Notes: a model not told the origin generated them from the letters alone. A stretch of 64,000 nucleotides of DNA from Candidatus Levyibacteriota bacterium (GCA_963790825.1 CAWBPM010000002.1:686980-750979); one strand, 5' to 3'; shown: positions 43,127 to 64,000, counted from the first letter of the stretch. Made by a program: numbers and translations.

Positions 43127-43130
43127 CTTT

Positions 43131-44160: not shown

Positions 44161-44168
44161 TTAAACTG

Positions 44169-44190: not shown

Positions 44191-44235
44191 ATGAGCTTTT
44201 GTGAAAAAAGCGAACCCCCGAAGCTTTAACGAAAG

Positions 44236-44826: not shown

Positions 44827-44931
44827 TTTTCAGTTTCTAATTTTTAATTTTCATTGAATGAATTAATTTTTAAACATTTAGTAATTGATTATTGATTGAG
44901 AATTGATAATTCTCCTGAAAGGAGGTGTATT

Positions 44932-49400: not shown

Positions 49401-51693
49401 TTGCTGATCCCGCAAGTATGCCATTTGAATAAACACTAACGGTAGTACCTTTTCTGACCATTGTTAGATATTGCCATTGATTATATAAAGGTCCAGTACC
49501 GGATGCCGGAGTTATGGTTGCGGTACTTAATCCTGCATAAACGTCATATGTATTCCCAGTTGTAAATAGATTGAGACCATATTCACAGTTTGCAGCACCA
49601 TTATCTTTGCAGAAAATTTGCTCTGATACGAATTGTGCAGCATCTGTATTATAAGTCCATGCACTGACAGTAAAATCGCCACCACCAAGTTCTATATTGC
49701 TTTTGTCAGGTATACTTACATAATTATCCGTTCCGTTGAAATTTCCTCCCCAGCCATATTTTCCCTGTTTCCATTGACTTCCCAGAGTTCCCTGCCAAGT
49801 TCCATTATTTCCATAACCTGATTTATCTGTCAAAGTTGAACCCGTTGCATCCTCAAAGTTATAATACGCTACCGGTCCTGGGGCATAGTTATATAAATTT
49901 TGTATGTCCTGCTGTGATAGAATACGATTATAGATACGCACTTCGTCGATTGACCCCTTCCACCACTCATTATAAAGACCGCATAGAGTATAACCTGGCC
50001 CACTACATTGTGCTCCGATAGTATAATTAATAGTTGTGTTGTTTGGAGCACAAGCTGCAGTCATTTTTAACACTCCGTCAACATATACTTCTACGTTTTT
50101 TCCATCATAGGTATTAACCCAGAAATGCCAATTGCCGTCGCTAACTGATGCGCCGGAATCATAATCATTGGTTCCTTGACAGAATGCTCCGGCATCCCCA
50201 CCAACCATTTCCATCTGCCAACCGTGAACCCCGCCGCCATCTTCGGCGCTAAATACCTCCGCTAAAGCTTTTTTTGTAGTTTTTACCCACGCGCTTGAGG
50301 TAAGAACGCTCCCAACATTAAGACTACTGGAATTAGGTATGCCTACAAAGTTATCAACCCCGTCAAATTGTCCGGCATTACCGAATTTCCCCGGACTTCC
50401 CGAATAGGCTTTACTTTTGGTCGGGCCTTGGGCTGTCCCGTTATTGCCATTACCGGATGAATCAATAACTTCATTTAGTGTTCCGCTCCAAGTCGCTTCA
50501 TCCATCTTCCAGTACCCAACGAGTCCGTTATTCAAAGCTGAGAATTGGTTATTGGTCGCAACTCCCATCACTGCACCTGCGCCTTTTGCGCTTCCCCGGG
50601 AATTATAATCGGCCTTCACCTGCGCGTCAGACCGGGCGTAGGGGTAGATCTTCACTTCATCGAGTCTACCATTATAAAGTAGTGACGGCCCTGTTGAACT
50701 GCCAAAATATACCTGATTAAACGTATGTAACGATCCGGATTGCGAAACAGACGTAGCGTTCGGAAGTCCGTTGAGATAAAGACGGACATTCGAACCGTCA
50801 TACGTCACTGATACGAAATACCACTGGTTAGCTGAGATTGTAGAATTTGTAGTAATACCTACTACACTATTACTGGCATTTCTCACATAACAATCAATCT
50901 GATTAGTGGCGTCAAACTGACAATAAACAATACCTTGGGAGCTGCCGCTGTCATAACCTACGACGTGCGCAGTCCAACTGCTCCAGTTAGGCGCGGCTTT
51001 AAACCAGTAGCTCAACGTCACGCCACTAAAAGACGGATAGGAATAAGATGATGCTAGCGCATAACTTGAGCTTCCGTTAAATGACAAACATTTTCCGCTG
51101 ACACACTGGTCCTCTGTCTGCCAGGAAGGAGATGTGGTACCACTCAATGTGCCATCGTTGTGGTTAATTGTATTGTCATGCACCGTTGTACCATACCCTT
51201 CATCAAATTTCCAGTAGGCCACTGGCTGGCCGAATGAACCCATGTAAACGCCTGGATTTGCGAAATTGTACCAACCGACATCTTGTGACCATACATAACC
51301 GGAAAATGCTCCTGATTGTAGGTCAATCCTTACATTACTGTTGTTGTTACTAAAGTATAAATATTCTCCCGAATTCATTATGTATGCCTTTCCGCTCACC
51401 ACTCCGTTACCCAAGTTCAGGGTTACCGGCCCTGATGGATTATCTGTTGAACCGAATGCTACCCAGCCTAAATCTTCTGAAAAAGCATATCCAGAAAAAA
51501 CACCCGTATTAGTGTCAATTGTGACGTTGCTGTTGTAATTGGTGAAGTCCAGATACGCTCCGGTATTAGCAGCAGTCGCCTTACCGGTGACTTTTACAAT
51601 TGAGGCAAAGGCAGGAGAGGCTGATGCAAGGAAAAATCCTCCTGTCAGAAATAGCAAACATAACAAAATAAGCCGTTTAACTTTGACTCCCAT
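46417..51693 (-). CDS. giant secreted protein with multiple LamG-like (Laminin_G_3 / concanavalin-A-like) repeats
   Basis: About 1760 aa; N-terminal signal/TM (LILLCLLFLTGGFFLASASPAFA); at least 8 repeats, each ending in the Laminin_G_3 signature G(S/R)(I/L)DE(V/A)(R/K)IY(N/P)…(L/A)(S/T)..(E/Q)I. The ORF track starts at a TTG at 51729; the ATG at 51693 is more likely. Confidence 0.8.
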   Translation of the reverse strand: MGVKVKRLILLCLLFLTGGFFLASASPAFASIVKVTGKATAANTGAYLDFTNYNSNVTIDTNTGVFSGYAFSEDLGWVAFGSTDNPSGPVTLNLGNGVVSGKAYIMNSGEYLYFSNNNSNVRIDLQSGAFSGYVWSQDVGWYNFANPGVYMGSFGQPVAYWKFDEGYGTTVHDNTINHNDGTLSGTTSPSWQTEDQCVSGKCLSFNGSSSYALASSYSYPSFSGVTLSYWFKAAPNWSSWTAHVVGYDSGSSQGIVYCQFDATNQIDCYVRNASNSVVGITTNSTISANQWYFVSVTYDGSNVRLYLNGLPNATSVSQSGSLHTFNQVYFGSSTGPSLLYNGRLDEVKIYPYARSDAQVKADYNSRGSAKGAGAVMGVATNNQFSALNNGLVGYWKMDEATWSGTLNEVIDSSGNGNNGTAQGPTKSKAYSGSPGKFGNAGQFDGVDNFVGIPNSSSLNVGSVLTSSAWVKTTKKALAEVFSAEDGGGVHGWQMEMVGGDAGAFCQGTNDYDSGASVSDGNWHFWVNTYDGKNVEVYVDGVLKMTAACAPNNTTINYTIGAQCSGPGYTLCGLYNEWWKGSIDEVRIYNRILSQQDIQNLYNYAPGPVAYYNFEDATGSTLTDKSGYGNNGTWQGTLGSQWKQGKYGWGGNFNGTDNYVSIPDKSNIELGGGDFTVSAWTYNTDAAQFVSEQIFCKDNGAANCEYGLNLFTTGNTYDVYAGLSTATITPASGTGPLYNQWQYLTMVRKGTTVSVYSNGILAGSAILTGTSTTSNSLEIGSIQNNYRWMGIIDDVRIYNYAISQKQIIQDMNGGASTVSVGGGRSGPIGYWKFDEGYGTTANNAGNGGATWNGNISGATWINDGKFGRAVNFNGSSNYISLASTGSINTNAYTVSAWIRAVVSGNTYERIFYKGNSSTIEPISAYLYNGLLSCEYYNNPTDYYARDTVDLRDNKWHYVACVRDPGNKIYAYVDGKLKVTANDGGDTTTVASNYSIGSRNGSDSYFYGAIDDLKFYNYILTSSEIQMDYNHNSATVLGAYSSTLTNGLVGYWKMDEPLLSWNGTAGEVKDSSGNNINGTGNSFSSNSPVVGKYGNAGSFNGTSQYVSANGLSIGTNSFTLSAWIKTASAANYQSIISYEGTIRFRFQVSGGALDYGIYPSGGPFVEKNDSGYDLRDNKWHHIAVTFNRSGLATSYVDGVAKGTLDISSASGVNLTGWPTNIGFDGWTASSYFPGSIDEVRIYNRALSADEIQALYTNSQSGFSASGTYCVPGDSSMCNPPVGEWNFDERYGSIVNDISGNGNNGTWTGTGSAHWVAGKYNGAGNFNGLDDNVSVAHASSINNLPAITASAWIYPKSVNATYGNYIIGKHQTVDSSPLPYKGWGLYLATGASIGYTNTIMFAVDFGTDHLEVNGVSNAIKLNQWQYIEVTWNGTAGTGSSSNVHIYVNGREITYGNQGDSSGTRYSDTSYNLKIGNSGDGLGAFNGSIDSVKLYNYARTPAQIAWDYNRGGPVGWWKFDECQGTVAHDNSGFGNDGTITIGTGGGTGHQDSVGTCIASGATAWYNGRNGKFNSSLNFDGIDDYVDVGKSPLFNFEYTNSFSISAWIKTSSSANTYIVNKMDGSVKGYAFLMADSGLGDIEFCVTHDVSHETCKEDMKIVSDGQWHHIVATYNGSGLSSGITLYTDGVLQQQRYTGDALSGGSIVNNVDLQIGQVAGWPAFDNFPGQIDDARIFNYVLTPLQVKLLYNGGGAVNFAPITGSP

Positions 51694-51771
51694 ATTATAA
51701 ATATTATAACTTTTCCTTTTGCTTGACAAGCAAGGGTAAAGAAATTAGTATAAAAGGGAAAGTAAAATAAT

Positions 51772-52650
51772 ATGAAAATGGAAAAAATCAAATCATACTT
51801 CATAAATCACATTATGAAAAAGCTCACATTCAGAAAGATAATACTACTATGTTGTGCACTTTGTCTGGTGATCAGTGGCATATTTTACTTCTATACCCGT
51901 GTTTTCGGGGAACAGTCCGGCTCCTCTCCCGATTCCTTGACTACATCACGTCTGAAGACTGTTTCGAATGCAGTTACTTCTCTGAGTTACGGTGCTACCA
52001 CAGCCGGTACATGGGGAGACTGGGGAAGTATGTGGAACAGAACCTATTCAGCAGCACAGGGACAGTTTAACGACGCAAAAGCTAAAGGTAATATGGAAGC
52101 AGGTAGTGGCACAGGAGGCCTTTCTGGTTTTACTCAAGCATTAGGAGGAGTTGATGATTACAACAATAATGGAGGAATGCCTTCCGATACGTATACCAGC
52201 GGGACTTGGACAGCTTGCAATGCCGGTAATAGTTATTGTAATACAAGTAGAAGCGTAGCGGAAAAACAGGACCCCAATACCGGTCTGGTCTGGTCAGCGC
52301 AAATTTCAGCTTCTGCCACCTGGTTCGTCGCAAATAACTGTGTACCTGGCACATGTACGTCTAACGGACAAGCAGGCTGTGTCTGTACGAAGCAAACCGG
52401 AGGAAGCAAAACAGGTTGTGAGGCATATGATGACGGACTCTGGCGTCTTCCTTCCCAGAAAGAGCTGGAGCAGTCCTATATTGACGGATCCAACAGTAAT
52501 TTAACTAATCCTAATTTCAATTACGTGTCTTCTACTACTGAAAGCACGGGTACACAGTATGCGTGGTACATAAAACAAAGCACTGGCAACGCGGACAACT
52601 ATACAAACGCCACTAAGACATTAACTTTCGCTGCAAGATGCGTACGCTGA
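51772..52650 (+). CDS. DUF1566 (Lcl C-terminal domain)-containing membrane-anchored protein, paralog 1
   Basis: 292 aa; N-terminal TM anchor, conserved GEQSGSSPDS, then the DUF1566 pattern DPNTGLVWS…GCEAYDDGLWRLPSQKELEQSYIDGS…AWYIK…ARCVR (the terminal RCVR is characteristic). Confidence 0.7.
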   Translation: MKMEKIKSYFINHIMKKLTFRKIILLCCALCLVISGIFYFYTRVFGEQSGSSPDSLTTSRLKTVSNAVTSLSYGATTAGTWGDWGSMWNRTYSAAQGQFNDAKAKGNMEAGSGTGGLSGFTQALGGVDDYNNNGGMPSDTYTSGTWTACNAGNSYCNTSRSVAEKQDPNTGLVWSAQISASATWFVANNCVPGTCTSNGQAGCVCTKQTGGSKTGCEAYDDGLWRLPSQKELEQSYIDGSNSNLTNPNFNYVSSTTESTGTQYAWYIKQSTGNADNYTNATKTLTFAARCVR

Positions 52651-52653
52651 GTT

Positions 52654-53508
52654 ATGAAAAAGGTTACAAAATATATTAAAAATAAATTTGTAAGTAAATT
52701 GATAATCCGTAAGGCATTCGTTCTGGGGTGTGTTCTTTTTTTAACCGGAATGTGTATATTTTATTATCCTGCCCGTGTTTTTGCAGAACAATCCGGTTCC
52801 TCTCCTGATTCAGGTGTAAATTCGAGACTTTTAACGATTTATAATGCATTAACTGCCCTAAATTACGGCAGTACCACAGCTGGAACATGGGGAGACTGGG
52901 GAAATATGTGGAACCGTGTCTACTCAGCAGCACAGGGACAGTTTAACGACGCAAAAGCGAAAGGCATGAAATCCGGTAGCGGCACAGGAGGCCTCTCAGC
53001 TTTCACTCAGGTACTAGGAGGAGTTGATGATTATAACAATGGCGGAGGGACGCCTTCTAATTCGTATACCAGCGGAACATGGACAACCTGTAATGCCGGC
53101 AACAGTTATTGCGGAACAGGCAGGAGTGTAGCGGAAAAACAGGATCCAAATACCGGTCTTGTTTGGTCACCGCGACTCAGTGGCCTTACGAACTGGTACA
53201 AGGCAAATAACTGTTCTAATAGCGATGGCAATCCCTGTGTAAAGAGAATGAGCGCCCAAACAGGTTGTGAGGGTTATGATGATCTTAACTGGCGTCTTCC
53301 TTCCCAGAAAGAACTGATGCAATCTTATATTGACGGATCCAACAGTAATTTATCCAATCCTAGTAACAATTACTGGTCGTCTAATACCAGCAGCACAGGT
53401 ACTACGTATGCTTGGTACATAGACCTGAACAACGGCTACGCGGCCAACTACAACACTGCCAATGGTAAAAGTTGGGGTCTCTCCGTCTATGCAAGGTGTG
53501 TACGCTAG
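52654..53508 (+). CDS. DUF1566 (Lcl C-terminal domain)-containing membrane-anchored protein, paralog 2
   Basis: 284 aa; same architecture and roughly 60% identical to the upstream gene (…DPNTGLVWSPRL…GCEGYDDLNWRLPSQKELMQSYIDGS…AWYIDL…ARCVR); 3-nt spacing from paralog 1. Confidence 0.7.
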   Translation: MKKVTKYIKNKFVSKLIIRKAFVLGCVLFLTGMCIFYYPARVFAEQSGSSPDSGVNSRLLTIYNALTALNYGSTTAGTWGDWGNMWNRVYSAAQGQFNDAKAKGMKSGSGTGGLSAFTQVLGGVDDYNNGGGTPSNSYTSGTWTTCNAGNSYCGTGRSVAEKQDPNTGLVWSPRLSGLTNWYKANNCSNSDGNPCVKRMSAQTGCEGYDDLNWRLPSQKELMQSYIDGSNSNLSNPSNNYWSSNTSSTGTTYAWYIDLNNGYAANYNTANGKSWGLSVYARCVR

Positions 53509-53741
53509 ATTTACTCTATAATTATTAAATTTGAATAACTGTTTCAGTTTTATAAATTCTGCCTCTATATTTAGTATATAAGTAGTATTGCTTAGCAAAC
53601 AAGAACTATGAATGATAATTGCTAAATTATTTCATTGTTAAATTGTTTCGCTTTTCTCCATATATATTTTAATAATTCGCCGCTACTTCGTAGCTAGTCC
53701 CCTTGGGAGATAGTAATTTAATAATGAGTGGACTGTCTTCG

Positions 53742-56700
53742 TTAGTTTACGATCCACCAGCTGACTTTAACGTCACTTGCTTGAGACTTACTTAGGGTAA
53801 TTGTGAAGCTAGTTGCGTCATTGGCTTTGCTGCCAACCGGCACAGGCGTATCTGAAGTAGTGAAAATTCGAGATTTCGCTGTCAGAGCAGTAGTCGTTAC
53901 GACCGCTTGTGTCCCCCCTGCTTTAATCACGACATCTCCCAAACTCGCACTTGCGCTGTCGGAATTGTCAATATTTACCTTATGAGCAGTCAGTACTCCT
54001 TGGGTTGTAATGTCTCCGTTGGTCTTGATTACTACGCTATTGTTCTCAAGCTCGATATTGGCAAGACCTTCGGATTGTAACTGTAGGGGTTGAGAAATAG
54101 TATCAATAGTACCGTTTAGTCCGTCAATTGTAGTTACTCCCGCAGTAATAGTTCCTGTTACTCCCAGATCGTTTAGGGTAGTTCTTCCCAGTACTTCCAG
54201 CTGTCCTGATACTGTTGCATCCTGCATATCCAGACTTCCGACGTCTGCGAATGTTCCGCTGCCTGAGGCAATTAAGCTACTTAGGAGTGGACTCTGGAGC
54301 ATTGAGGTTAGGAATGCACTCTGAGAAGCCAGTTGATTCTCCTGATCTGACAGATTATTTACCTGTCCGGAGAGAGAAGTGATCTCGCTTCCTTGTTGAG
54401 ACGTGGTATTCTCCAGATTCGTCAATCTTGCTTCGTCGGTGGCACCGAGCGTCTCCGGTTCCGTTTGACTCGATTGAGCCGGCGGCTCGCTAACTGTAGC
54501 TACATAACCGGAATTACTATTGTTCGCCGTACTTGTATAAACATTACCGCTTGCAGTAATAAAGGTAGACGGAGCAAACAAGGTTGGCCCAACCAAGACT
54601 TCAATCGTCCCCACCCCTGAATCGGAATAACTTTGTAGGGCTTTACCTACGACCTTACCAAATGTCGTTGCCTTTACGCCGACACCCTGAGTATTAGACA
54701 AGGTAATATAATCCCCTGCTTGAATTGGTCCATTGTCTGTAGAAACTAGAGTATTAACTTCTCCCGATAAACCGATAGTGATTGATGCATTTCCTTGGTC
54801 TTGTCCTCCGACGAAACCGGGATATTCTGAAGCCACACCGACAATATCACCGCTTGTATTACTACTCCCGCAAGGATGTACTATTCCGTTTGTATCTTCA
54901 CAAAGTATTGAACCCCACGGAATTGTTTCATTCGGATCCTTAGATAAATATTCTGCCAAGTCCGCAATACCTGATGTTTTCCATGTCACTCCTGTACCAT
55001 TTGCTTGAGCACTACCCCTTAGATTTCCATTTCCATCTAACAGATTAATAAAGTGGTCTTCGCTGTTATTCGTAATAGCTGTATAACCCAGCTGAACCAG
55101 GAGCCCTACAGGACCGCTATTACCTACTCCTGAAGTACTATTTAAATTATATATTCTTGCAGATGCAGTTGCTGACTGATTATCCTGTACATCAAGTGCT
55201 AATCCAGGCGTTGCAGTTCCTATCCCTACTTTGTATGTTGGTTGTACGGTCAATTGTCCCGAGATGGTCGCTGCACCGTTAACACTGAAAGCTTGGGAAT
55301 TAACTATTACGTTTCCGGAGTTATAAGTACCCAGTGTCAGGTCACTTGAAGTATAGAGATCTCCTGCTTGAAGCGTCAAAGCGGACGACGATTTTATAAA
55401 CGATGCTGTAGGATTGGTGAAATCCAAATCATAAGCCATTGTCGTATCTCCGGGGGCGGTAAATTGTACCGGTAGATTACCTAAAATTTGACTCTGTGAA
55501 ACTGAAAAGTCTGTGGAGCCGTTATCCATAATATTAAAGATATTAGCAATTGAACCATTCGCTCCGCTTGCGTTTGCTCCGACATTGAGGTCTAGTACGT
55601 CTCCTGTAGATGTAGTTGCACTTCCGGGGTTATAGCTGAAGTATCCCAGAGCTCCGTTGGTAGTCAACCCGGTTGAGGTAGAACTAATATCCAAACCATA
55701 TCCGGTAGTTAAGGAGTTGGCGTTAAGCATATCGGCAATACCGGTTGAAGCATTGCTGTTCTGGATAATACTTCCGTCATTCTGGATTACAAACCTTGTT
55801 GCACCGCTCACGGAAGCAGTAAAGATATCTCCGTTTCCTGAGTTATCAACCACCAGTGCTGCAGCTGAAGTCTTGCCTGAGATTGAGGCAACAGGAGTAA
55901 TTCCAGATAAAGTTGTATTCCCAACACCACGTACATCAAGAATTGCATTTGGGCTGGAAGAATTAATTCCTATATCACCCGAAGAGTCGATAGCAAATCT
56001 ATTTGCAGCAGCGGTCTGATCAGTAATTGCGAAGGTACCATTGGCTACGTAAGGTCCATCGCCTATCCTCCAAGCTCTTCCGTTAGTGCCTGTATTAGTA
56101 ATCCAAATTTCAGAGCCTGGGGAACTTGTATCACTGCCACTAATTTGCAGCGCTGCACCCGGAATACTCGTCCCAATTCCGACCCATCCGCTGTTATTAA
56201 CTACAAACCTTGTTGCACCGCTTACAGAAGCGGTAAAGAGATCTCCCTTCCCTGAGTTACTAACTACCAGGGCAGAATAGGAAGTATTCGCTGCTATGGA
56301 AGCAACCGGAGAGGTACCGGCAAGAGTTGAACCGTAGACATGGAAGGTAGCGGAGGGAGTTGAAATTCCGCCCAGGAGTAGATCAACCGTCGCATTCTTT
56401 GGAGAAATTGTTCCATTAACTTGATTCCAGAGATTAACTCCGGGAGAAGTATCGCAAGCTCCCCAGGTAGGAGCAGCACTAGTATTGGCAAGCAAGCATT
56501 GTGCAGTTGTTCCCATAGCAAGGGCTCCGCCTAAGACTCCGGTAGACGTGTAGTACGGGAGAGCGTATTGGGCAGCTGCACTATTGTTGAATCCTGTACC
56601 GCCGTACTGACTGGTGATAAGTGTTGCGTTCCAGGTACCAGTGGTGATAGTACCGGTATTGGCAGTAATTGCTAATCCATTAATTGTTCCTAGTCCGGTA

Positions 56701-59700
56701 ATGATTTGTGAGTTTCCGGTAATTTGACCTATTAAGGTATGTGCTCCCAGTTGTAAGGTGCCGGAAGAGGCAGAAATTATGTGGTTACCGGTACCTGTGG
56801 AGAAAGTAAGTCCCGCACCATTTCCCGTTAGGGTAAGACCGGTGGTACCGGACGAGGTGATATCCGTTCCTTGGATAGTGCTACTAGTATTAATCGTACC
56901 AAAACCAGTTGTAATAGATCCCGCGGAGAGAGCACTGACTGTTGTCAGGGAGGAGGAGGTAACACCGGTTCCCAGGGTTGTACCCGAAAGAACATCGGTA
57001 CTATTAATCTTGAAGGTAGAGCCGGTTGAGAGATTAAGATTACCGGCAATATCCAGTTTCTGGGTTGGAAGACTGGTACCGATTCCTACGTTACCACTCT
57101 GAGTGATAACAAATCTACTAAGTCCCGAGGAAGAAGCGGTAAAGAGATCTCCCTTCCCTGAGTTATTAACTACCAATGCAGCATAGGCAGTAGTCGCTGC
57201 TATGGAAGCAACCGGATTTATTCCTTCTGCGGTTGTACCATAGATATGGAAATTAGCGGAGGAAGTACTAACTCCACCCAGGAGTAGATCCTGAGTAATA
57301 TTAGATTGTATAATAGTTCCTCCCGAACTGACGAATCCTCCGCATGTTCCCCAAGTAGGAGCAGCACTACTGTTACTATTCAAGCATTGTCCGGTTGTTC
57401 CGACTGCCAAAGTTCCGCCTAAGACTCCGGTTGCCGAGTAGTACGGGAGAGCGTATTGGGCAGCTACACTATTGTTGAATCCTGTACCGCCGTACTGACT
57501 GGTGATAAGTGTTGCGTTCCAGGTACCGGAGGTGAGTGTTCCGACTGTTGTCAGGGAGGAGGAGGTAACACCGGTTCCCAGGGTTGTTGAGGAGAGAACG
57601 CTGTTGCCGGCGATCTGGTAAGCACCGCTGACACTGTTAAGGTTACCCGAGTGGTCAAGGGTAAAGACCGTAGTACCGGATGCACTGGCAGTCAGGATAT
57701 TCTGGTTGCCGGTTTCATTAAGTGAGACTAAGGCTTTACCGGTTTGTTTCCCGTTGACTTCCAGCTGGAAGTTAGTGGTAGCATTACCGCCGAGAATGAG
57801 TTTATCAGTATTGGTAGCGGCATTTCCGGGTGAGATGACGTTTGAGGTATCTGTCCAGTAGTTGGTAGTTCCGGCACAGTTACCGGTTGAGAGACAGAGA
57901 GTACCGCTGGCATCCGGAATAGTAAGGGTTCTGGTATTTCCGGTAGTAATTCCTGAGAGCTGGAAGGCAAGCTTTTTAGTACTGTCTAAATTATTCTGGA
58001 AGAGAGTGGAGCTATCGGTTAGGGTTTTATTGGTTAGAGTGTCTGTACTGGCACGTCCGACAATAGTATCGGACACGGACGGGAAAGTTAAGGTGGTACC
58101 ATCGGTTCCGGCAAAGGTAAGGTTATTGTTGACAGTCAGGATTTTCCCGGCAGCAATGGAAAGAGTATTAGTACCGTTATTGGTGATTGTTAAACCATTA
58201 ACTGTTCCTGAGGCAGTAAGGTTACCCGAGTGGTCAAGGGTAAAGACCGTAGTACCGGATGCACTGGCAGTCAGGATATTCTGGTTGCCGGTTTCATTAA
58301 GTGAGACTAAGGCTTTACCGGTTTGTTTCCCGTTGACTTCCAGCTGGAAGTTAGTGGTAGCATTACCGCCGAGAATGAGTTTATCAGTATTGGTAGCGGC
58401 ATTTCCGGGTGAGATGACGTTTGAGGTATCTGTCCAGTAGTTGGTAGTTCCGGCACAGTTACCGGTTGAGAGACAGAGAGTACCGCTGGCATCCGGAATA
58501 GTAAGGGTTCTGGTATTTCCGGTAGTAATTCCTGAGAGCTGGAAGGCAAGCTTTTTAGTACTGTCTAAATTATTCTGGAAGAGAGTGGAGCTATCGGTTA
58601 GGGTTTTATTGGTTAGAGTGTCTGTACTGGCACGTCCGACAATAGTATCGGACACGGACGGGAAAGTTAAGGTGGTACCATCGGTTCCGGCAAAGGTAAG
58701 GTTATTGTTGACAGTCAGGATTTTCCCGGCAGCAATGGAAAGAGTATTAGTACCGTTATTGGTGATTGTTAAACCATTAACTGTTCCTGAGGCAGTAAGG
58801 TTACCCGAGTGGTCAAGGGTAAAGACCGTAGTACCGGATGCACTGGCAGTCAGGATATTCTGGTTGCCGGTTTCATTAAGTGAGACTAAGGCTTTACCGG
58901 TTTGTTTCCCGTTGACTTCCAGCTGGAAGTTAGTGGTAGCATTACCGCCGAGAATGAGTTTATCAGTATTGGTAGCGGCATTTCCGGGTGAGATGACGTT
59001 TGAGGTATCTGTCCAGTAGTTGGTAGTTCCGGCACAGTTACCGGTTGAGAGACAGAGAGTACCGCTGGCATCCGGAATAGTAAGGGTTCTGGTATTTCCG
59101 GTAGTAATTCCTGAGAGCTGGAAGGCAAGCTTTTTAGTACTGTCTAAATTATTCTGGAAGAGAGTGGAGCTATCGGTTAGGGTTTTATTGGTTAGAGTGT
59201 CTGTACTGGCACGTCCGACAATAGTATCGGACACGGACGGGAAAGTTAAGGTGGTACCATCGGTTCCGGCAAAGGTAAGGTTATTGTTGACAGTCAGGAT
59301 TTTCCCGGCAGCAATGGAAAGAGTATTAGTACCGTTATTGGTGATTGTTAAACCATTAACTGTTCCTGAGGCAGTAAGGTTACCCGAGTGGTCAAGGGTA
59401 AAGACCGTAGTACCGGATGCACTGGCAGTCAGGATATTCTGGTTGCCGGTTTCATTAAGTGAGACTAAGGCTTTACCGGTTTGTTTCCCGTTGACTTCCA
59501 GCTGGAAGTTAGTGGTAGCATTACCGCCGAGAATGAGTTTATCAGTATTGGTAGCGGCATTTCCGGGTGAGATGACGTTTGAGGTATCTGTCCAGTAGTT
59601 GGTAGTTCCGGCACAGTTACCGGTTGAGAGACAGAGAGTACCGCTGGCATCCGGAATAGTAAGGGTTCTGGTATTTCCGGTAGTAATTCCTGAGAGCTGG

Positions 59701-62700
59701 AAGGCAAGCTTTTTAGTACTGTCTAAATTATTCTGGAAGAGAGTGGAGCTATCGGTTAGGGTTTTATTGGTTAGAGTGTCTGTACTGGCACGTCCGACAA
59801 TAGTATCGGACACGGACGGGAAAGTTAAGGTGGTACCATCGGTTCCGGCAAAGGTAAGGTTATTGTTGACAGTCAGGATTTTCCCGGCAGCAATGGAAAG
59901 AGTATTAGTACCGTTATTGGTGATTGTTAAACCATTAACTGTTCCTGAGGCAGTAAGGTTACCCGAGCGGTCAAGGGTAAAGACCGTAGTACCGGATGCA
60001 CTGGCAGTCAGGATATTCTGGTTGCCGGTTTCATTAAGAATAGTAAGGGCTTTCCCCGTTACTTTCCCTTCAACATCGAGTTTTGATACCGGAGTTATCC
60101 CTACGCCAAGCAGTTTATTAGTACTGTCAAAGTACAAGGTAGAATCAGACGAGATAGTACTACTACCAGTAAAGAAAGCCAACTGGTTGGCAACTCCACC
60201 TGAAGCTGTAACTCCGCTCGTACCGGTACAAGATCCCCAAGAAGGAACAGCAGTGACACCTCCCGATACCAGGCAGGAACCGATTGCTACATCCGAGAGT
60301 TTCCCCCAGGTATTTGTTCCCGATCCGTAGAGAAGATCTCCGGTGGTAACGGTTGTCTGTCCTGTACCGCCGTAGAGTGTACCTATAGCACTTCCCTGCC
60401 AAGTACCAGTACCAATTGTCCCGACCGTTGTCAGGGAGGAGGAGGTAACACCGGTTCCCAGGGTTGTTGAGGAGAGAACGCTGTTACCGGCGATCTGGTA
60501 AGCACCGCTGACACTGTTAAGGTTACCCGAGTGGTCAAGGGTAAAGACCGTAGTACCGGATGCACTGGCAGTCAGGATATTCTGGTTGCCGGTTTCATTA
60601 AGTGAGACTAAGGCTTTACCGGTTTGTTTCCCGTTGACTTCCAGCTGGAAGTTAGTGGTAGCATTACCGCCGAGAATGAGTTTATCAGTATTGGTAGCGG
60701 CATTTCCGGGTGAGATGACGTTTGAGGTATCTGTCCAGTAGTTGGTAGTTCCGGCACAGTTACCGGTTGAGAGACAGAGAGTACCGCTGGCATCCGGAAT
60801 AGTAAGGGTTCTGGTATTTCCGGTAGTAATTCCTGAGAGCTGGAAGGCAAGCTTTTTAGTACTGTCTAAATTATTCTGGAAGAGAGTGGAGCTATCGGTT
60901 AGGGTTTTATTGGTTAGAGTGTCTGTACTGGCACGTCCGACAATAGTATCGGACACGGACGGGAAAGTTAAGGTGGTACCATCGGTTCCGGCAAAGGTAA
61001 GGTTATTGTTGACAGTCAGGATTTTCCCGGCAGCAATGGAAAGAGTATTAGTACCGTTATTGGTGATTGTTAAACCATTAACTGTTCCTGAGGCAGTAAG
61101 GTTACCCGAGTGGTCAAGGGTAAAGACCGTAGTACCGGATGCACTGGCAGTCAGGATATTCTGGTTGCCGGTTTCATTAAGTGAGACTAAGGCTTTACCG
61201 GTTTGTTTCCCGTTGACTTCCAGCTGGAAGTTAGTGGTAGCATTACCGCCGAGAATGAGTTTATCAGTATTGGTAGCGGCATTTCCGGGTGAGATGACGT
61301 TTGAGGTATCTGTCCAGTAGTTGGTAGTTCCGGCACAGTTACCGGTTGAGAGACAGAGAGTACCGCTGGCATCCGGAATAGTAAGGGTTCTGGTATTTCC
61401 GGTAGTAATTCCTGAGAGCTGGAAGGCAAGCTTTTTAGTACTGTCTAAATTATTCTGGAAGAGAGTGGAGCTATCGGTTAGGGTTTTATTGGTTAGAGTG
61501 TCTGTACTGGCACGTCCGACAATAGTATCGGACACGGACGGGAAAGTTAAGGTGGTACCATCGGTTCCGGCAAAGGTAAGGTTATTGTTGACAGTCAGGA
61601 TTTTCCCGGCAGCAATGGAAAGAGTATTAGTACCGTTATTGGTGATTGTTAAACCATTAACTGTTCCTGAGGCAGTAAGGTTACCCGAGTGGTCAAGGGT
61701 AAAGACCGTAGTACCGGATGCACTGGCAGTCAGGATATTCTGGTTGCCGGTTTCATTAAGCGAGACTAAGGCTTTACCGGTTTGTTTCCCGTTGACTTCC
61801 AGCTGGAAGTTAGTGGTAGCATTACCGCCGAGAATGAGTTTATCAGTATTGGTAGCGGCATTTCCGGGTGAGATGACGTTTGAGGTATCTGTCCAGTAGT
61901 TGGTAGTTCCGGCACAGTTACCGGTTGAGAGACAGAGAGTACCGCTGGCATCCGGAATAGTAAGGGTTCTGGTATTTCCGGTAGTAATTCCTGAGAGCTG
62001 GAAGGCAAGCTTTTTAGTACTGTCTAAATTATTCTGGAAGAGAGTGGAGCTATCGGTTAGGGTTTTATTGGTTAGAGTGTCTGTACTGGCACGTCCGACA
62101 ATAGTATCGGACACGGACGGGAAAGTTAAGGTGGTACCATCGGTTCCGGCAAAGGTAAGGTTATTGTTGACAGTCAGGATTTTCCCGGCAGCAATGGAAA
62201 GAGTATTAGTACCGTTATTGGTGATTGTTAAACCATTAACTGTTCCTGAGGCAGTAAGGTTACCCGAGCGGTCAAGGGTAAAGACCGTAGTACCGGATGC
62301 ACTGGCAGTCAGGATATTCTGGTTGCCGGTTTCATTAAGTGAGACTAAGGCTTTACCGGTTTGTTTCCCGTTGACTTCCAGCCTGAAGTTAGTCGTAGTT
62401 CCCGAGTCAGCCAGGAGGAGTGAATCGCTGGCTGTTGCCGGAGAGAGGGTAGTGGTATTTCTCTGGAAGTAATTGGTGCCCAGTCCGGTACAAGACGACC
62501 AGCTTGGTGCAGCAGTGGTATTGCCAACCAGACATTGTCCGGTTGTTCCGACTGCCAAAGTTCCGCCTAAGACTCCGGTTGCCGAGTAGTACGGGAGAGC
62601 GTATTGGGCAGCTGCACTATTGTTGAATCCTGTACCGCCGTACTGACTGGTGATAAGTGTTGCGTTCCAGGTACCGGAGGTGAGTGTTCCGACTGTTGTC

Positions 62701-64000
62701 AGGGAGGAGGAGGTAACACCGGTTCCCAGGGTTGTACCCGAAAGAACATCGGTACTATTAATCTTGAAGGTAGAGCCGGTTGAGAGATTAAGATTACCGG
62801 CAATATCCAGTTTCTGGGTTGGAAGACTGGTACCGATTCCTACATTACCACTCTGAGTGATAACAAATCTACTAAGTCCCGAGGAAGAAGCGGTAAAGAG
62901 ATCTCCCTTCCCTGAGTTATTAACTACCAGGGCAGCATAGGCAGTAGTCGCTGCTATGGAAGCAACCGGATTTATTCCTTCTGCGGTTGTACCATAGATA
63001 TGGAAATTAGCGGAGGAAGTACTAACTCCACCCAGGAGTAGATCCTGAGTAATATTAGATTGTATAATAGTTCCTCCCGAACTGACGAATCCTCCGCATG
63101 TTCCCCAAGTAGGAGCAGCACTACTGTTACTATTCAAGCATTGTCCGGTTGTTCCCATAGCAAGGGTTCCGCCTAAGACTCCGGTTGCCGAGTAGTACGG
63201 GAGAGCGTATTGGGCAGCTGCACTATTGTTGAATCCTGTACCGCCGTACTGACTGGTGATAAGTGTTGCGTTCCAGGTACCGGAGGTGAGTGTTCCGACT
63301 GTTGTCAGGGAGGAGGAGGTAACACCGGTTCCCAGGGTTGTTGAGGAGAGAACGCTGTTGCCGGCGATCTGGTAAGCACCGCTGACACTGTTAAGGTTAC
63401 CCGAGCGGTCAAGGGTAAAGACCGTAGTACCGGATGCACTGGCAGTCAGGATATTCTGGTTGCCGGTTTCATTAAGCGAGACTAAGGCTTTACCGGTTTG
63501 TTTCCCGTTGACTTCCAGCCTGAAGTTAGTCGTAGTTCCCGAGTCAGCCAGGAGGAGTGAATCGCTGGCTGTTGCCGGAGAGAGGGTAGTGGTATTTCTC
63601 TGGAAGTAATTGGTGCCCAGTCCGGTACAAGACGACCAGCTTGGTGCAGCAGTGGTATTGCCAACCAGACATTGTCCGGTTGTTCCGACTGCCAAAGTTC
63701 CGCCTAAGACTCCGGTTGCCGAGTAGTACGGGAGAGCGTATTGGGCAGCTGCACTATTGTTGAATCCTGTACCGCCGTACTGACTGGTGATAAGTGTTGC
63801 GTTCCAGGTACCGGAGGTGAGTGTTCCGACTGTTGTCAGGGAGGAGGAGGTAACACCGGTTCCCAGGGTTGTTGAGGAGAGAACGCTGTTACCGGCGATC
63901 TGGTAAGCACCGCTGACACTGTTAAGGTTACCCGAGTGGTCAAGGGTAAAGACCGTAGTACCGGATGCACTGGCAGTCAGGATATTCTGGTTGCCGGTTT
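53742..64000 (-). CDS. giant Gly/Thr/Ser/Asn-rich repetitive surface protein (over 3,400 aa; N-terminus lies beyond the window edge)
   Basis: Single open minus-strand frame from the stop at 53742 to the window end; the listed start at 63695 is only an in-frame TTG and upstream codons continue the repeat. Contains at least 10 near-identical 193-aa repeats and a higher-order repeat of about 380 aa; the non-repetitive C-terminal 600 aa has a coiled-coil-like segment followed by a beta-rich domain. Confidence 0.8.
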   Translation of the reverse strand, partial: TGNQNILTASASGTTVFTLDHSGNLNSVSGAYQIAGNSVLSSTTLGTGVTSSSLTTVGTLTSGTWNATLITSQYGGTGFNNSAAAQYALPYYSATGVLGGTLAVGTTGQCLVGNTTAAPSWSSCTGLGTNYFQRNTTTLSPATASDSLLLADSGTTTNFRLEVNGKQTGKALVSLNETGNQNILTASASGTTVFTLDRSGNLNSVSGAYQIAGNSVLSSTTLGTGVTSSSLTTVGTLTSGTWNATLITSQYGGTGFNNSAAAQYALPYYSATGVLGGTLAMGTTGQCLNSNSSAAPTWGTCGGFVSSGGTIIQSNITQDLLLGGVSTSSANFHIYGTTAEGINPVASIAATTAYAALVVNNSGKGDLFTASSSGLSRFVITQSGNVGIGTSLPTQKLDIAGNLNLSTGSTFKINSTDVLSGTTLGTGVTSSSLTTVGTLTSGTWNATLITSQYGGTGFNNSAAAQYALPYYSATGVLGGTLAVGTTGQCLVGNTTAAPSWSSCTGLGTNYFQRNTTTLSPATASDSLLLADSGTTTNFRLEVNGKQTGKALVSLNETGNQNILTASASGTTVFTLDRSGNLTASGTVNGLTITNNGTNTLSIAAGKILTVNNNLTFAGTDGTTLTFPSVSDTIVGRASTDTLTNKTLTDSSTLFQNNLDSTKKLAFQLSGITTGNTRTLTIPDASGTLCLSTGNCAGTTNYWTDTSNVISPGNAATNTDKLILGGNATTNFQLEVNGKQTGKALVSLNETGNQNILTASASGTTVFTLDHSGNLTASGTVNGLTITNNGTNTLSIAAGKILTVNNNLTFAGTDGTTLTFPSVSDTIVGRASTDTLTNKTLTDSSTLFQNNLDSTKKLAFQLSGITTGNTRTLTIPDASGTLCLSTGNCAGTTNYWTDTSNVISPGNAATNTDKLILGGNATTNFQLEVNGKQTGKALVSLNETGNQNILTASASGTTVFTLDHSGNLTASGTVNGLTITNNGTNTLSIAAGKILTVNNNLTFAGTDGTTLTFPSVSDTIVGRASTDTLTNKTLTDSSTLFQNNLDSTKKLAFQLSGITTGNTRTLTIPDASGTLCLSTGNCAGTTNYWTDTSNVISPGNAATNTDKLILGGNATTNFQLEVNGKQTGKALVSLNETGNQNILTASASGTTVFTLDHSGNLNSVSGAYQIAGNSVLSSTTLGTGVTSSSLTTVGTIGTGTWQGSAIGTLYGGTGQTTVTTGDLLYGSGTNTWGKLSDVAIGSCLVSGGVTAVPSWGSCTGTSGVTASGGVANQLAFFTGSSTISSDSTLYFDSTNKLLGVGITPVSKLDVEGKVTGKALTILNETGNQNILTASASGTTVFTLDRSGNLTASGTVNGLTITNNGTNTLSIAAGKILTVNNNLTFAGTDGTTLTFPSVSDTIVGRASTDTLTNKTLTDSSTLFQNNLDSTKKLAFQLSGITTGNTRTLTIPDASGTLCLSTGNCAGTTNYWTDTSNVISPGNAATNTDKLILGGNATTNFQLEVNGKQTGKALVSLNETGNQNILTASASGTTVFTLDHSGNLTASGTVNGLTITNNGTNTLSIAAGKILTVNNNLTFAGTDGTTLTFPSVSDTIVGRASTDTLTNKTLTDSSTLFQNNLDSTKKLAFQLSGITTGNTRTLTIPDASGTLCLSTGNCAGTTNYWTDTSNVISPGNAATNTDKLILGGNATTNFQLEVNGKQTGKALVSLNETGNQNILTASASGTTVFTLDHSGNLTASGTVNGLTITNNGTNTLSIAAGKILTVNNNLTFAGTDGTTLTFPSVSDTIVGRASTDTLTNKTLTDSSTLFQNNLDSTKKLAFQLSGITTGNTRTLTIPDASGTLCLSTGNCAGTTNYWTDTSNVISPGNAATNTDKLILGGNATTNFQLEVNGKQTGKALVSLNETGNQNILTASASGTTVFTLDHSGNLTASGTVNGLTITNNGTNTLSIAAGKILTVNNNLTFAGTDGTTLTFPSVSDTIVGRASTDTLTNKTLTDSSTLFQNNLDSTKKLAFQLSGITTGNTRTLTIPDASGTLCLSTGNCAGTTNYWTDTSNVISPGNAATNTDKLILGGNATTNFQLEVNGKQTGKALVSLNETGNQNILTASASGTTVFTLDHSGNLNSVSGAYQIAGNSVLSSTTLGTGVTSSSLTTVGTLTSGTWNATLITSQYGGTGFNNSVAAQYALPYYSATGVLGGTLAVGTTGQCLNSNSSAAPTWGTCGGFVSSGGTIIQSNITQDLLLGGVSTSSANFHIYGTTAEGINPVASIAATTAYAALVVNNSGKGDLFTASSSGLSRFVITQSGNVGIGTSLPTQKLDIAGNLNLSTGSTFKINSTDVLSGTTLGTGVTSSSLTTVSALSAGSITTGFGTINTSSTIQGTDITSSGTTGLTLTGNGAGLTFSTGTGNHIISASSGTLQLGAHTLIGQITGNSQIITGLGTINGLAITANTGTITTGTWNATLITSQYGGTGFNNSAAAQYALPYYTSTGVLGGALAMGTTAQCLLANTSAAPTWGACDTSPGVNLWNQVNGTISPKNATVDLLLGGISTPSATFHVYGSTLAGTSPVASIAANTSYSALVVSNSGKGDLFTASVSGATRFVVNNSGWVGIGTSIPGAALQISGSDTSSPGSEIWITNTGTNGRAWRIGDGPYVANGTFAITDQTAAANRFAIDSSGDIGINSSSPNAILDVRGVGNTTLSGITPVASISGKTSAAALVVDNSGNGDIFTASVSGATRFVIQNDGSIIQNSNASTGIADMLNANSLTTGYGLDISSTSTGLTTNGALGYFSYNPGSATTSTGDVLDLNVGANASGANGSIANIFNIMDNGSTDFSVSQSQILGNLPVQFTAPGDTTMAYDLDFTNPTASFIKSSSALTLQAGDLYTSSDLTLGTYNSGNVIVNSQAFSVNGAATISGQLTVQPTYKVGIGTATPGLALDVQDNQSATASARIYNLNSTSGVGNSGPVGLLVQLGYTAITNNSEDHFINLLDGNGNLRGSAQANGTGVTWKTSGIADLAEYLSKDPNETIPWGSILCEDTNGIVHPCGSSNTSGDIVGVASEYPGFVGGQDQGNASITIGLSGEVNTLVSTDNGPIQAGDYITLSNTQGVGVKATTFGKVVGKALQSYSDSGVGTIEVLVGPTLFAPSTFITASGNVYTSTANNSNSGYVATVSEPPAQSSQTEPETLGATDEARLTNLENTTSQQGSEITSLSGQVNNLSDQENQLASQSAFLTSMLQSPLLSSLIASGSGTFADVGSLDMQDATVSGQLEVLGRTTLNDLGVTGTITAGVTTIDGLNGTIDTISQPLQLQSEGLANIELENNSVVIKTNGDITTQGVLTAHKVNIDNSDSASASLGDVVIKAGGTQAVVTTTALTAKSRIFTTSDTPVPVGSKANDATSFTITLSKSQASDVKVSWWIVN
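57550..60050 (-). repeat. tandem array A of near-identical 579-bp intragenic repeats (about 4.3 units)
   Basis: Identical alternative-frame ORF shadows spaced exactly 579 bp apart (plus 57862/58441/59020/59599; minus 57728/58307/58886/59465) show roughly 99-100% DNA identity between units. Confidence 0.75.
60450..62350 (-). repeat. tandem array B of the same 579-bp unit (about 3.3 units)
   Basis: Shadow ORFs at plus 60742/61321/61900 and minus 60608/61187/61766 are identical to those of array A; the arrays are separated by a 380-aa block that itself recurs near 63400+. Confidence 0.75.

What the first reader, a model, noticed from the sequence alone, without database searches (positions are those of the whole stretch)
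57550..62350. Near-100%-identical 579-bp tandem repeats inside the giant gene suggest recent expansion and probable copy-number (antigenic/length) variation
Alternative-frame ORF shadows of identical amino-acid sequence recur at exactly 579-bp spacing at least 8 times in two arrays, and a larger unit of about 1.1 kb and a 5.7-kb higher-order repeat are also visible (shadow ORFs 62345/63482 and 56896/62650 are identical). Divergence between units is limited to a few SNPs (for example PEWSRV versus PERSRV). This is the pattern of concerted evolution or recent slipped or unequal recombination. Such arrays are hard to assemble from short reads and typically vary in copy number between cells or strains, giving variable-length surface fibres.
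Basis: seen in the sequence. Interest (0 to 1): 0.55.

Follow-up and report, generated by a model that had tools for sequence, protein, structure and literature searches.

The report
Identical repeat modules in giant fibre gene
A giant surface-fibre gene of a tiny (CPR/Patescibacteria) bacterium carries seven virtually identical 579-bp, in-frame modules in two arrays, which points to very recent duplication or gene conversion and could let the fibre change length, but this is a known kind of behaviour for bacterial surface proteins and length variation itself was not shown.

Summary
Seven complete 579-nt (193-codon) units lie in two arrays, 3 units at 60516-62252 and 4 units at 57636-59951. 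Four units are identical at every base, and across 4,053 nt there is one synonymous SNP plus the junction codon.

The gene is on the minus strand, stops at 53742, and is still open at the window edge, so it encodes at least 3,418 aa. It sits in ordinary chromosome (16S, nusG-rplKAJ, topA, mreB) of a Levyibacteriota-like CPR bacterium. The protein is a chain of 140-300-aa modules that all end in one conserved hinge. That hinge matches the capping-loop repeat of the solved Bdellovibrio trimeric fibre Bd2133 (E 4e-7). The C-terminus resembles the phage phi29 gp12 autochaperone. A near-identical relative supplies an N-terminal MerR-HTH plus TM anchor.

Identity at synonymous sites argues for recent unequal recombination or gene conversion. 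Copy-number variation is plausible ("Periscope"-like) but untested. The only hint is a different module order in the closest relative's fragmented assembly. "Antigenic" is unsupported. Moderate interest: a new member of a known kind.

The parts
53742..64000 (-). Giant fibre gene. Stop codon at 53742-53744, coding 53745-63998, 5' end cut by the window edge (at least 3,418 codons).
   Evidence: The frame is open up to base 64000. The ORF listing reports it from an internal TTG at 63695 only. Composition is T 17.6%, G 12.2%, S 11.5%. Homologues are giant CPR proteins.
60516..62252 (-). Array A: three 579-nt R units (M4, M5, M6; 193 aa each).
   Evidence: M4 carries the only intra-unit SNP (TCG vs TCA, synonymous).
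57636..59951 (-). Array B: four 579-nt R units (M8-M11).
   Evidence: M8, M9 and M10 are identical to each other and to M5 of array A.
59952..60515 (-). S3-type module (M7, 188 aa) separating the two arrays. It shares its last 87 nt (hinge) with R units and its first ~95 nt (head) with S1/S2 modules.
62253..63920 (-). Modules M1 (S1, 177 aa), M2 (S2, 184 aa) and M3 (S1', 195 aa), N-terminal to array A.
   Evidence: M1 vs M3 is 508/530 nt. M2 is a 98% copy of M12.
63921..63998 (-). Hinge of a further upstream module (M0), cut by the window edge. It carries the His (CAC) hinge codon otherwise seen only after R units.
   Evidence: That an R unit precedes it is inference only.
55764..57635 (-). 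Modules M12 (S2 type, 57084-57635), M13 (302 aa, 56178-57083) and M14 (138 aa, 55764-56177), with canonical 'SGNVGIGT..P...L' capping-loop motifs.
   Evidence: A single-sequence search of 55719-57161 hits the Bdellovibrio Bd2133 fibre 8ond_A at E 4e-7 across three of its capping loops.
54960..55763 (-). Distal beta-rich region conserved with P0084 (76% identity) and P0085. It is a candidate tip or binding region.
   Evidence: No Pfam or NCBIfam model matches. The function is inferred from position only.
54567..54959 (-). Peptidase_G2-like (phi29 gp12-type) autochaperone-like beta domain.
   Evidence: Pfam PF11962 scores 21.7 bits, below the 25-bit cut-off. AF2 pLDDT is 91-98. Foldseek matches 3suc at E 2.3e-5 and BFVD 'preneck appendage protein' at E 1.3e-11. 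The family profile hits 3gqh at E 3.5e-5 and tailspike chaperone 28nb at E 4.8e-4.
54267..54440 (-). Long alpha-helix (predicted coiled coil). Its protein sequence is 100% identical to P0084.
53745..53954 (-). C-terminal beta-sandwich ending '...WWIVN', conserved in P0266, P0178 and P0084.
   Evidence: (pLDDT 91-97). Weak K1-lyase_C hit, 17 bits.
57862..62472 (+). They are not genes.
   Evidence: The antisense frame has one stop per 579-nt unit.

Best explanation
The 579-bp repeats are in-frame copies of one 193-aa stalk module of a giant cell-surface fibre protein of a CPR/Patescibacteria bacterium. The protein is a chain of at least 15 modules. Each module ends in the same hinge (...LNETGNQNILTASASGTTVFTLD(H/R)SGNL). 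This hinge is homologous to the capping-loop repeat of trimeric beta-helix fibres (Bdellovibrio MAT proteins, phage tail fibres). By homology the protein is anchored by an N-terminal TM helix with a cytoplasmic MerR-type HTH. It ends distally in a tip region, a phi29-gp12-like autochaperone, a coiled coil and a small beta-sandwich. The seven R modules are identical even at synonymous sites, so they arose or were homogenised very recently by homologous (unequal) recombination or gene conversion between 579-bp repeats. Each gain or loss keeps the reading frame and changes the stalk by 193 residues per chain. Different module types also share 87-251 nt of near-identical DNA at their ends, so modules can also be reshuffled in frame. 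Shown: the repeat anatomy, the identity pattern, the gene context, the homologies. Inferred: trimeric fibre, surface display, recombination as the mechanism. Not shown: length variation in the population and its functional use (reach or attachment to a host or surface).
For: Repeat anatomy and near-absolute identity, including third codon positions. Older duplicates in the same gene are 1.8-4.2% diverged, so the R units are younger or actively homogenised. Units in the two separate arrays are identical to each other. Shared recombination handles between module types are 87-131 nt at tails and 95-251 nt at heads, and a 38-nt hinge occurs 10 times exactly. Chromosomal context is 16S, tRNAs, nusG-rplKAJ, topA, mreB, PBP2 and purA, with no phage genes. 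The window's proteins sit on one 751,017-nt contig. The nearest TopA relatives are Ca. Levyibacteriota at 60-65%. Fibre nature: the giant's own sequence hits Bd2133 (8ond) at E 4e-7 through the hinge motif, and the family profile hits it at E 1.5e-15 along with six further Bdellovibrio MAT entries. MAT proteins are surface-displayed intertwined trimers with swappable tips (PMC10769870). The C-terminal autochaperone-like domain is supported. N-terminal MerR HTH + TM is seen in P0288 (288/292 identical over the overlap) and in P0178 and P0190. Recent internal duplication is a family trait: 18 of 111 homologues of at least 1,000 aa have a window of at least 95/100 identical residues, and 7 have 100/100. 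Module order differs in the closest relative, and P0084 is a mosaic of 100%-identical and 60-76% blocks.
Against: No reads and no second assembly of the arrays were available, so neither the copy number nor its variability is verified. The perfect identity could be partly produced by consensus polishing over multi-mapping reads. The AF2 monomer model of two units is poor (pLDDT 58.5, pTM 0.29), so the fold and oligomeric state of the R unit are unknown. A profile made only from the window's module tails did not reach the MAT structures. The R unit has only a degenerate capping loop (LILGGNATTNFQLEV). The N-terminus of this gene lies outside the window, so the HTH/TM anchor is borrowed from P0288, which could be a paralogue. 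P0288 and P0084 come from fragmented contigs that could not be retrieved, so their different module order might be an assembly artefact.
Confidence: 0.62

Rival explanations
1. Assembly or polishing artefact: the number of units (3 + 4) and/or their perfect identity is produced by the assembler or by consensus polishing with multi-mapping reads. The real locus has a different copy number or slightly diverged units.
For: 2.3 kb of perfectly periodic sequence cannot be resolved by short reads. An independent k-mer assembly of the same strain (Logan ERR11594402, L001, 100% identical over 6,567 nt) is fragmented in this neighbourhood. No exact copy of the hinge exists in the other collections to cross-check.
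Against: The reading frame is intact over at least 10.2 kb. Both arrays start and end at proper module junctions with the type-specific His/Arg hinge codon. The source contig is 751,017 nt, the size of a closed CPR genome, which implies long-read or curated assembly. Collapse rather than expansion is the usual artefact. Near-identical internal repeats recur in many independently assembled homologues.
Confidence: 0.12
2. A real but static recent duplication: the modules were duplicated recently (for example one segmental duplication of R x 3 plus flanks) and are now a fixed part of the stalk, with no ongoing copy-number variation and no adaptive use of length changes.
For: Lag 2880 shows 1,953/1,956 identity between 57547-59502 and 60427-62382, compatible with one recent block duplication. 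No population data are available.
Against: 579-bp perfect direct repeats are efficient substrates for RecA-dependent deletion and expansion (established knowledge). Four identical adjacent copies are hard to keep static. The family shows repeated independent cases of near-identical internal duplicates, and module order differs in the closest relative.
Confidence: 0.2
3. The gene is a prophage or tailocin tail-fibre gene rather than a cellular surface protein, and the repeats are ordinary phage fibre shaft repeats.
For: PHROG 692 'virion structural protein' hits each unit. The unit core occurs in Rhodobacter and Rhodococcus phage proteins. The C-terminus resembles the phi29 gp12 autochaperone.
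Against: No phage genes lie within about 15 kb on the readable side; the neighbours are ribosomal-protein genes, a LamG giant and DUF1566 proteins. Homologues carry an N-terminal HTH plus TM anchor. Viral contigs hold no copy of the hinge, and the C-terminal 504 aa has no sequence match in 50,697 phage genomes.
Confidence: 0.04
4. Identity is maintained by selection on the nucleotide or RNA sequence itself (for example a structured or regulatory RNA, or an antisense gene encoded by the + strand ORFs).
For: Long + strand ORFs with the same period exist.
Against: The + strand ORFs are bounded by a single stop per unit and simply mirror the repeat. Rfam finds nothing there. The sense frame has clear protein homologues.
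Confidence: 0.02

Closest known systems
Periscope Proteins (Whelan et al. 2021, PNAS; PMC8201768): variable-length bacterial surface proteins such as SasG, Aap, Rib, Sgo_0707, Esp and CdrA
   Same: Long in-frame tandem arrays of highly identical DNA repeats in a surface protein. The high DNA identity is proposed to permit intragenic recombination that adds or removes repeats and so changes how far a distal functional region projects.
   Different: Periscope repeats are usually single globular domains (80-130 aa, mostly with Pfam families) in monomeric rods of cultured pathogens, and inter-strain length variation is documented. Here the unit is a 193-aa composite segment with no Pfam model, probably part of a trimeric beta-helical fibre. 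The arrays are interrupted by other module types. The organism is an uncultured CPR bacterium, and no length variation has been observed.
Mosaic adhesive trimer (MAT) fibre superfamily of Bdellovibrio bacteriovorus (Caulton et al. 2024, Nat Microbiol; PMC10769870; PDB 8ond, 8ojn, 8oml, 8on4, 8ol4)
   Same: Sequence homology through the recurring capping-loop/hinge motif (E 4e-7; E 1.5e-15). Long phage-like fibre with a conserved proximal part and swappable distal modules. A C-terminal autoproteolytic-chaperone-type domain is present in many members. Mosaicism between paralogues resembles P0084 here.
   Different: MATs are about 1,000 aa, start with a signal peptide and a conserved ~130-aa beta domain, and use S74 chaperones or other tips. 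This protein is at least 3,418 aa, its likely N-terminus is a MerR HTH plus TM helix, and its chaperone-like domain is of the G2 (phi29 gp12) type. It contains arrays of identical modules, which the passages of the MAT paper that I read do not describe.
Phage phi29 gp12 pre-neck appendage / tailspikes with C-terminal intramolecular chaperones (Peptidase_G2, PF11962; PDB 3suc, 3gqh)
   Same: The fold and weak sequence similarity of residues ~3014-3144 to the gp12 autochaperone region, followed by a helical segment.
   Different: Sequence similarity is below Pfam's threshold. The catalytic and cleavage residues were not checked. The protein is encoded in a cellular chromosome with a membrane anchor, not in a phage.
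Giant repeat-rich proteins of uncultured bacteria (e.g. Omnitrophota giant genes, West-Roberts et al. 2023, bioRxiv 10.1101/2023.11.21.568195)
   Same: Very long membrane-anchored extracellular proteins whose repeats fragment short-read assemblies.
   Different: Different phylum, domain content and size class (over 30,000 aa). No sequence relationship was found here.

Membership tests
Periscope Proteins | Tandem array of long, highly identical repeats at DNA level, in frame, inside one gene | tested here: met
   7 units of 579 nt with at most 1 intra-unit SNP.
Periscope Proteins | Repeat number varies between strains or isolates | not testable with these tools
   No reads are available, and no second assembly of the array exists in viral, JGI or GTDB collections. 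The only hint is the different module order in P0288.
Periscope Proteins | Repeats are folded domains that form an elongated rod projecting a functional domain | tested here: inconclusive
   The AF2 monomer model of two units has pLDDT 58.5 and almost no secondary structure. Rod or fibre character is inferred only from MAT and tail-fibre homology of the hinge.
Periscope Proteins | Cell-surface anchoring | tested here: inconclusive
   The N-terminus is outside the window. The near-identical relative P0288 has a MerR HTH (45 bits, above the cut-off) followed by a hydrophobic helix.
MAT (mosaic adhesive trimer) fibres | Recurring capping-loop motif (V-G-G/N-pi-x-x-P-x-x-x-L) on a beta-helical shaft | tested here: met
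   SGNVGIGTSLPTQKLDIAG and similar motifs in M2/M12, M13, M14 and the C-terminal region align to three capping loops of Bd2133 (E 4e-7). The R unit has a degenerate version, LILGGNATTNFQLEV. A window-only tail profile did not hit.
MAT (mosaic adhesive trimer) fibres | Intertwined homotrimer | not testable with these tools
   Only monomer prediction is available.
MAT (mosaic adhesive trimer) fibres | Signal peptide followed by a conserved ~130-aa N-terminal beta domain | tested here: not met
   The gene's own N-terminus is outside the window. The closest relatives (P0288, P0178, P0190) start instead with a MerR-type HTH and a TM helix. I therefore treat it as MAT-like, not as a MAT member in the strict sense.
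MAT (mosaic adhesive trimer) fibres | C-terminal S74 chaperone/protease (SDxxxK) or an alternative adhesive tip | tested here: not met
   No Peptidase_S74 hit in the giant. It has a G2-like domain instead. Some homologues do carry PF13884.
Peptidase_G2 / phi29 gp12-type autochaperone | Sequence match to PF11962 above threshold | tested here: not met
   21.7 bits against a gathering score of 25. Several homologues have precomputed PF11962 hits.
Peptidase_G2 / phi29 gp12-type autochaperone | Fold similarity to the gp12 C-terminal domain | tested here: met
   Foldseek 3suc E 2.3e-5 and BFVD preneck appendage proteins E 1.3e-11, TMt 0.65. The family profile hits 3gqh at E 3.5e-5.
Peptidase_G2 / phi29 gp12-type autochaperone | Autoproteolytic cleavage and catalytic residues | not tested
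   No residue-level comparison or experiment was done.
Prophage / tailocin tail fibre | Embedded in a cluster of phage structural genes | tested here: not met
   Housekeeping and surface-protein genes lie on the readable side. The upstream side is outside the window.

The most novel reading that the evidence does not exclude
Across CPR/Patescibacteria there is a class of giant proteins in which a cytoplasmic DNA-binding domain (MerR-type HTH, or in other members an integrase SAM-like domain) is tethered by one TM helix to a multi-thousand-residue trimeric, phage-like fibre. In this reading the fibre is the episymbiont's host-contact organ, its length and tip are rapidly re-tuned by recombination between identical modules and shared 'handles' (possibly using paralogues such as P0084 as donor cassettes), and contact is signalled to the HTH domain. 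That would be a combined variable adhesin and contact sensor.
Probability: 0.12. Interest if true: 0.75.

Novelty: new member of a known kind. Interest (0 to 1): 0.38.

Why it matters
CPR bacteria are thought to live attached to host cells, yet their attachment machinery is largely unknown, and short-read MAGs systematically break or collapse genes like this one. A closed-genome example shows three things. These fibres are built from interchangeable modules. Parts of the stalk have been duplicated or homogenised so recently that no synonymous change has accumulated. The family is related to the Bdellovibrio prey-recognition fibres and to phage tailspikes. If length or module order varies within populations, this would extend the 'Periscope' principle from cultured pathogens to uncultured episymbionts and give a concrete locus for studying host-range adaptation. 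Practically, it flags a region where copy number in any assembly should be verified with long reads.

Tried and rejected
- TRF found nothing because its period limit is 500.
- Pfam on the whole protein gave only spurious sub-threshold hits (Lon_C, VWA_N, RHS) driven by repetition.
- NCBIfam has no model for any part.
- Single-sequence PDB searches with the R unit and with the C-terminal 819 aa found nothing.
- The full-length protein homology search timed out twice.
- Looking for the same locus elsewhere failed. The exact neighbour proteins are not on record. The contigs of P0084 and P0288 are not retrievable. The C-terminus has no relative in the GTDB representatives. Viral contigs and JGI metagenomes hold no exact hinge 30-mer.
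- The AF2 model of two R units is too poor to use for a fold search.
- A profile of only the window's module tails did not reach the MAT structures.
- I rejected the 'higher-order 5.7-kb repeat': identity at lag 5754 is confined to 829 nt, an S2-type module plus its flanks.
- I rejected the idea that the Logan contig L001 breaks because of repeats in the LamG gene: that gene has no high-identity DNA repeats, at most 68/100.
- I rejected the + strand ORFs as genes.
- I considered the elevated GC of the gene as a sign of foreign origin. It is mostly second-position GC (0.54) from the Thr/Gly/Ser/Ala-rich composition. GC3 in the repeats is only modestly higher, 0.47 against 0.33-0.40.

Full report

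In 53000-64000 the best self-match is at a shift of 579 nt, followed by 2880, 2301, 1158, 3459 and 5754. Tandem Repeats Finder reported nothing only because its longest period is 500. The direct-repeat finder shows copies spaced 579, 579, 579, 1143, 579, 579, 579.

At lag 579, region 57638-60038 has 1 mismatch in 1,822 compared positions, and region 60518-62382 has 3 in 1,286. Cut in codon register, there are seven complete 579-nt units: M4-M6 (62252-60516) and M8-M11 (59951-57636). Four of them (M5, M8, M9, M10) are identical at all 579 positions. M4 differs by one synonymous change (TCG/TCA). M6 and M11 differ only in the last codon, which is really the junction to the next module type.

The + strand ORFs it used as markers (57862-62472) are antisense shadows, because that frame has exactly one stop per unit.

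The other lags are also real:
- Lag 1137: 480/481 identical.
- Lag 5754: 817/829.
- Lag 2880: 1,953/1,956.

These are by-products of the module grammar described below, not larger repeat units. At lag 5754, identity is confined to about 830 nt.

The 'PEWSRV/PERSRV' SNP is a CAC(His)/CGC(Arg) codon in the hinge. His follows every R unit, and Arg follows the S1- and S3-type modules.

**2. What is the gene?**

The ORF is on the minus strand and stops at 53742. It has no in-frame stop up to base 64000, so its 5' end is outside the window and it encodes at least 3,418 residues.

The window is ordinary bacterial chromosome:
- A full-length 16S rRNA and five tRNAs.
- nusG-rplK-rplA-rplJ.
- topA, PBP2, mreB, purA and prs.

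Next to the giant gene lie a 1,770-aa protein with seven Laminin_G_3 domains and two tandem Lcl_C/DUF1566 genes. No phage genes were seen.

Exact copies of the window's housekeeping proteins are recorded on a single contig of 751,017 nt (NCBI/ENA/Logan). From my own knowledge, that is the size of a closed CPR genome. The nearest TopA sequences among GTDB representatives are Candidatus Levyibacteriota MAGs at 60-65% identity. Homologues of the giant carry names from Saccharimonadales, Gottesman-, Levy-, Lipton-, Woese- and Daviesbacteria.

A Logan contig from run ERR11594402 is 100% identical to window 41303-47869, so the strain exists in an independent data set.

**3. Anatomy of the protein.**

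A regular-expression scan shows 14 occurrences of one hinge motif, TAS.SG...F.[LIV]...G. These cut the readable part into modules of 138-302 aa:

M0 (hinge only) | S1 | S2 | S1' | R R R | S3 | R R R R | S2 | M13 | M14 | distal region | G2-like domain | coiled coil | beta-sandwich.

The S1, S2 and S3 modules share the same head (SVSGAYQIAGNSVLSSTTLGTGVTSSSLTTVGT...). The R, S1 and S3 modules share the same tail.

At DNA level, different module types share 87-131 nt at their tails and 95-251 nt at their heads with at most two mismatches. One 38-nt hinge string occurs ten times exactly, against zero in 100 shuffles.

Older duplicates are measurably diverged. The two S2 modules are 542/552 identical, and S1 vs S1' is 508/530.

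**4. What kind of protein?**

Pfam and NCBIfam have no model for the R unit. PHROG 692 ('virion structural protein') matches all seven units.

An exhaustive search with the unit found 3,579 representative proteins. The conserved part is a ~70-aa core (TLTFP..DT.VGR.TTDTLTNKTL ... F.D..D.TKKLAFQLSGITTGNTRTLTIPDASGT), present up to 44 times per protein. The whole 193-aa unit is recovered only in a few giant proteins (P0178, P0266, P0190, P0283). In cultured phages the core occurs only in 'hypothetical proteins'.

The informative links are structural:
- The giant's own residues ~2280-2760 hit the solved Bdellovibrio fibre Bd2133 (8ond) at E 4e-7. The match runs through the hinge/capping-loop motif (SGNVGIGTSLPTQKLDIAG against three loops of Bd2133).
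- A family profile hits the same protein at 1.5e-15 and six further 'cell wall surface anchor family protein' entries from the same study.

[quoted passage not shown] Its members are surface-displayed, intertwined trimeric beta-helix fibres with a recurring capping loop, swappable adhesive tips and often a C-terminal autoproteolytic chaperone.

The evidence on the giant's C-terminus is:
- The C-terminal 504 residues gave an AF2 model with three confident parts. Its best PDB match is the pre-mature phage phi29 gp12 (3suc, E 2.3e-5), and its best viral match is 'preneck appendage protein' (E 1.3e-11).
- This agrees with a sub-threshold Peptidase_G2 hit (21.7 bits against a 25-bit cut-off).
- The family profile also hits the gp12 C-terminal fragment 3gqh (3.5e-5) and a tailspike chaperone domain.

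The AF2 monomer model of two R units was poor (pLDDT 58.5). That says nothing for or against a fold. An obligate trimer could give such a result, but this is not evidence.

**5. The N-terminus and the nearest relatives.**

P0288 (1,159 aa, on a 55,514-nt contig) is 288/292 identical to the first 292 residues readable in the window. Upstream of that it has a MerR-type HTH (45 bits, above the cut-off), a hydrophobic helix and a stalk. Many family members have the same start.

P0288 has a perfect S1-S1 tandem (lag 177 aa), where this genome reads S1-S2-S1'.

P0084 (1,175 aa, on a 239,846-nt contig) is a mosaic relative of the C-terminal part. It has 100%-identical blocks of ~95 and ~170 aa flanking blocks of 60-76% identity or no similarity.

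Both come from an assembly other than the 751-kb contig, and I could not retrieve either contig. They are consistent with module exchange between alleles or paralogues, but assembly artefacts cannot be excluded.

**6. Mechanism.**

Identity at synonymous sites cannot be maintained by selection on the protein. The R units must have been duplicated, or homogenised by gene conversion, very recently relative to the S-type duplicates.

Units in two physically separate arrays are identical. This needs either a recent block duplication (lag 2880) or conversion between arrays.

Perfect 579-bp direct repeats are classical substrates for RecA-dependent unequal exchange (established knowledge). Because 579 = 3 x 193, every such event is in frame.

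This is the logic of 'Periscope Proteins' (PMC8201768). There, high DNA identity among tandem repeats allows gain and loss of repeats and thereby changes how far a distal domain projects.

Within the family, 18 of 111 homologues of at least 1,000 aa have an internal window of at least 95/100 identical residues, and 7 have 100/100. Their longest perfect runs are 49-204 aa, against 617 aa here. The difference is expected if short-read assemblies collapse or break such arrays. It also makes this gene the extreme case among those sampled.

**7. What remains unproven.**
- The copy number and its variability. No reads and no second assembly were available.
- Whether polishing exaggerated the identity.
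- The trimeric state and fold of the R unit.
- Surface display.
- The true N-terminus.
- Any 'antigenic' role, for which there is no evidence.

**8. Verdict.**

The interpretation (recent expansion or concerted evolution) is well supported. The prediction (copy-number and length variation) is plausible but untested.

The object is a new member of known kinds: a MAT/tail-fibre-like giant surface fibre with Periscope-like identical stalk modules, found in a CPR bacterium. Interest is moderate.

Noticed in passing
P0288, P0178, P0190 and many hits (outside the window): Many homologues of the giant fibre begin with a cytoplasmic MerR-type HTH (PF00376/PF13411/PF12728) and one TM helix. Others begin with an integrase SAM-like domain (PF02899/PF13495). 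NCBI consequently names multi-thousand-residue fibres 'MerR family transcriptional regulator' or 'site-specific integrase'. A membrane-tethered DNA-binding domain on a giant extracellular fibre is an unexplained architecture.
   Followed up: partly
P0084 vs window 53745-57638: A mosaic relative: protein blocks of ~95 aa and ~170 aa are 100% identical to the giant, next to blocks of 60-76% identity and an unrelated middle. This is the pattern expected from recombination or cassette exchange between fibre genes or alleles. Its contig (239,846 nt) could not be fetched.
   Followed up: partly
window 46417-51729 (-): A second giant surface-type gene (1,770 aa, seven Laminin_G_3 domains, PHROG hits to virion structural proteins) lies directly beside the fibre gene. 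It has no high-identity DNA repeats (at most 68/100). The Logan contig L001 nevertheless ends inside it at 47869.
   Followed up: partly
window 51772-52650 and 52654-53508 (+): Two tandem paralogous genes with an N-terminal hydrophobic segment and an Lcl_C/DUF1566 domain are wedged between the two giant genes, convergent with the fibre gene. No terminator-like site lies in the 233-nt gap to the fibre gene's stop.
   Followed up: no
window 39119-39733 (-): A 204-aa ORF that matches only integrase N-terminal SAM-like domains (two stretches), with no catalytic domain called. The same domain type heads some giant fibre homologues.
   Followed up: no
window 847-2345 (-) and 36-111 (-): A full-length 16S rRNA gene is followed by tRNA-Cys, and no 23S rRNA lies in the window. 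The rRNA genes may be unlinked, as is often reported for CPR bacteria.
   Followed up: no
window 43131-43970 (+): Ribosomal protein L1 is 279 aa, and its Pfam match is split into two stretches (the best covers residues 155-271). This suggests an insertion or N-terminal extension.
   Followed up: no
window 53745-63998 (-): The giant gene is compositionally distinct. GC at second codon positions is 0.54 against 0.34-0.44 in housekeeping genes, and GC3 is 0.47 in the repeat arrays against 0.33-0.40 elsewhere. This is largely explained by its Thr/Gly/Ser/Ala-rich composition.
   Followed up: yes
P0137, P0136: Unrelated giant proteins consist almost entirely of the ~70-aa core motif (up to 44 copies). 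P0137 has many 100%-identical ~69-aa repeats. So near-identical repetition of this motif also occurs outside the CPR fibre family.
   Followed up: no
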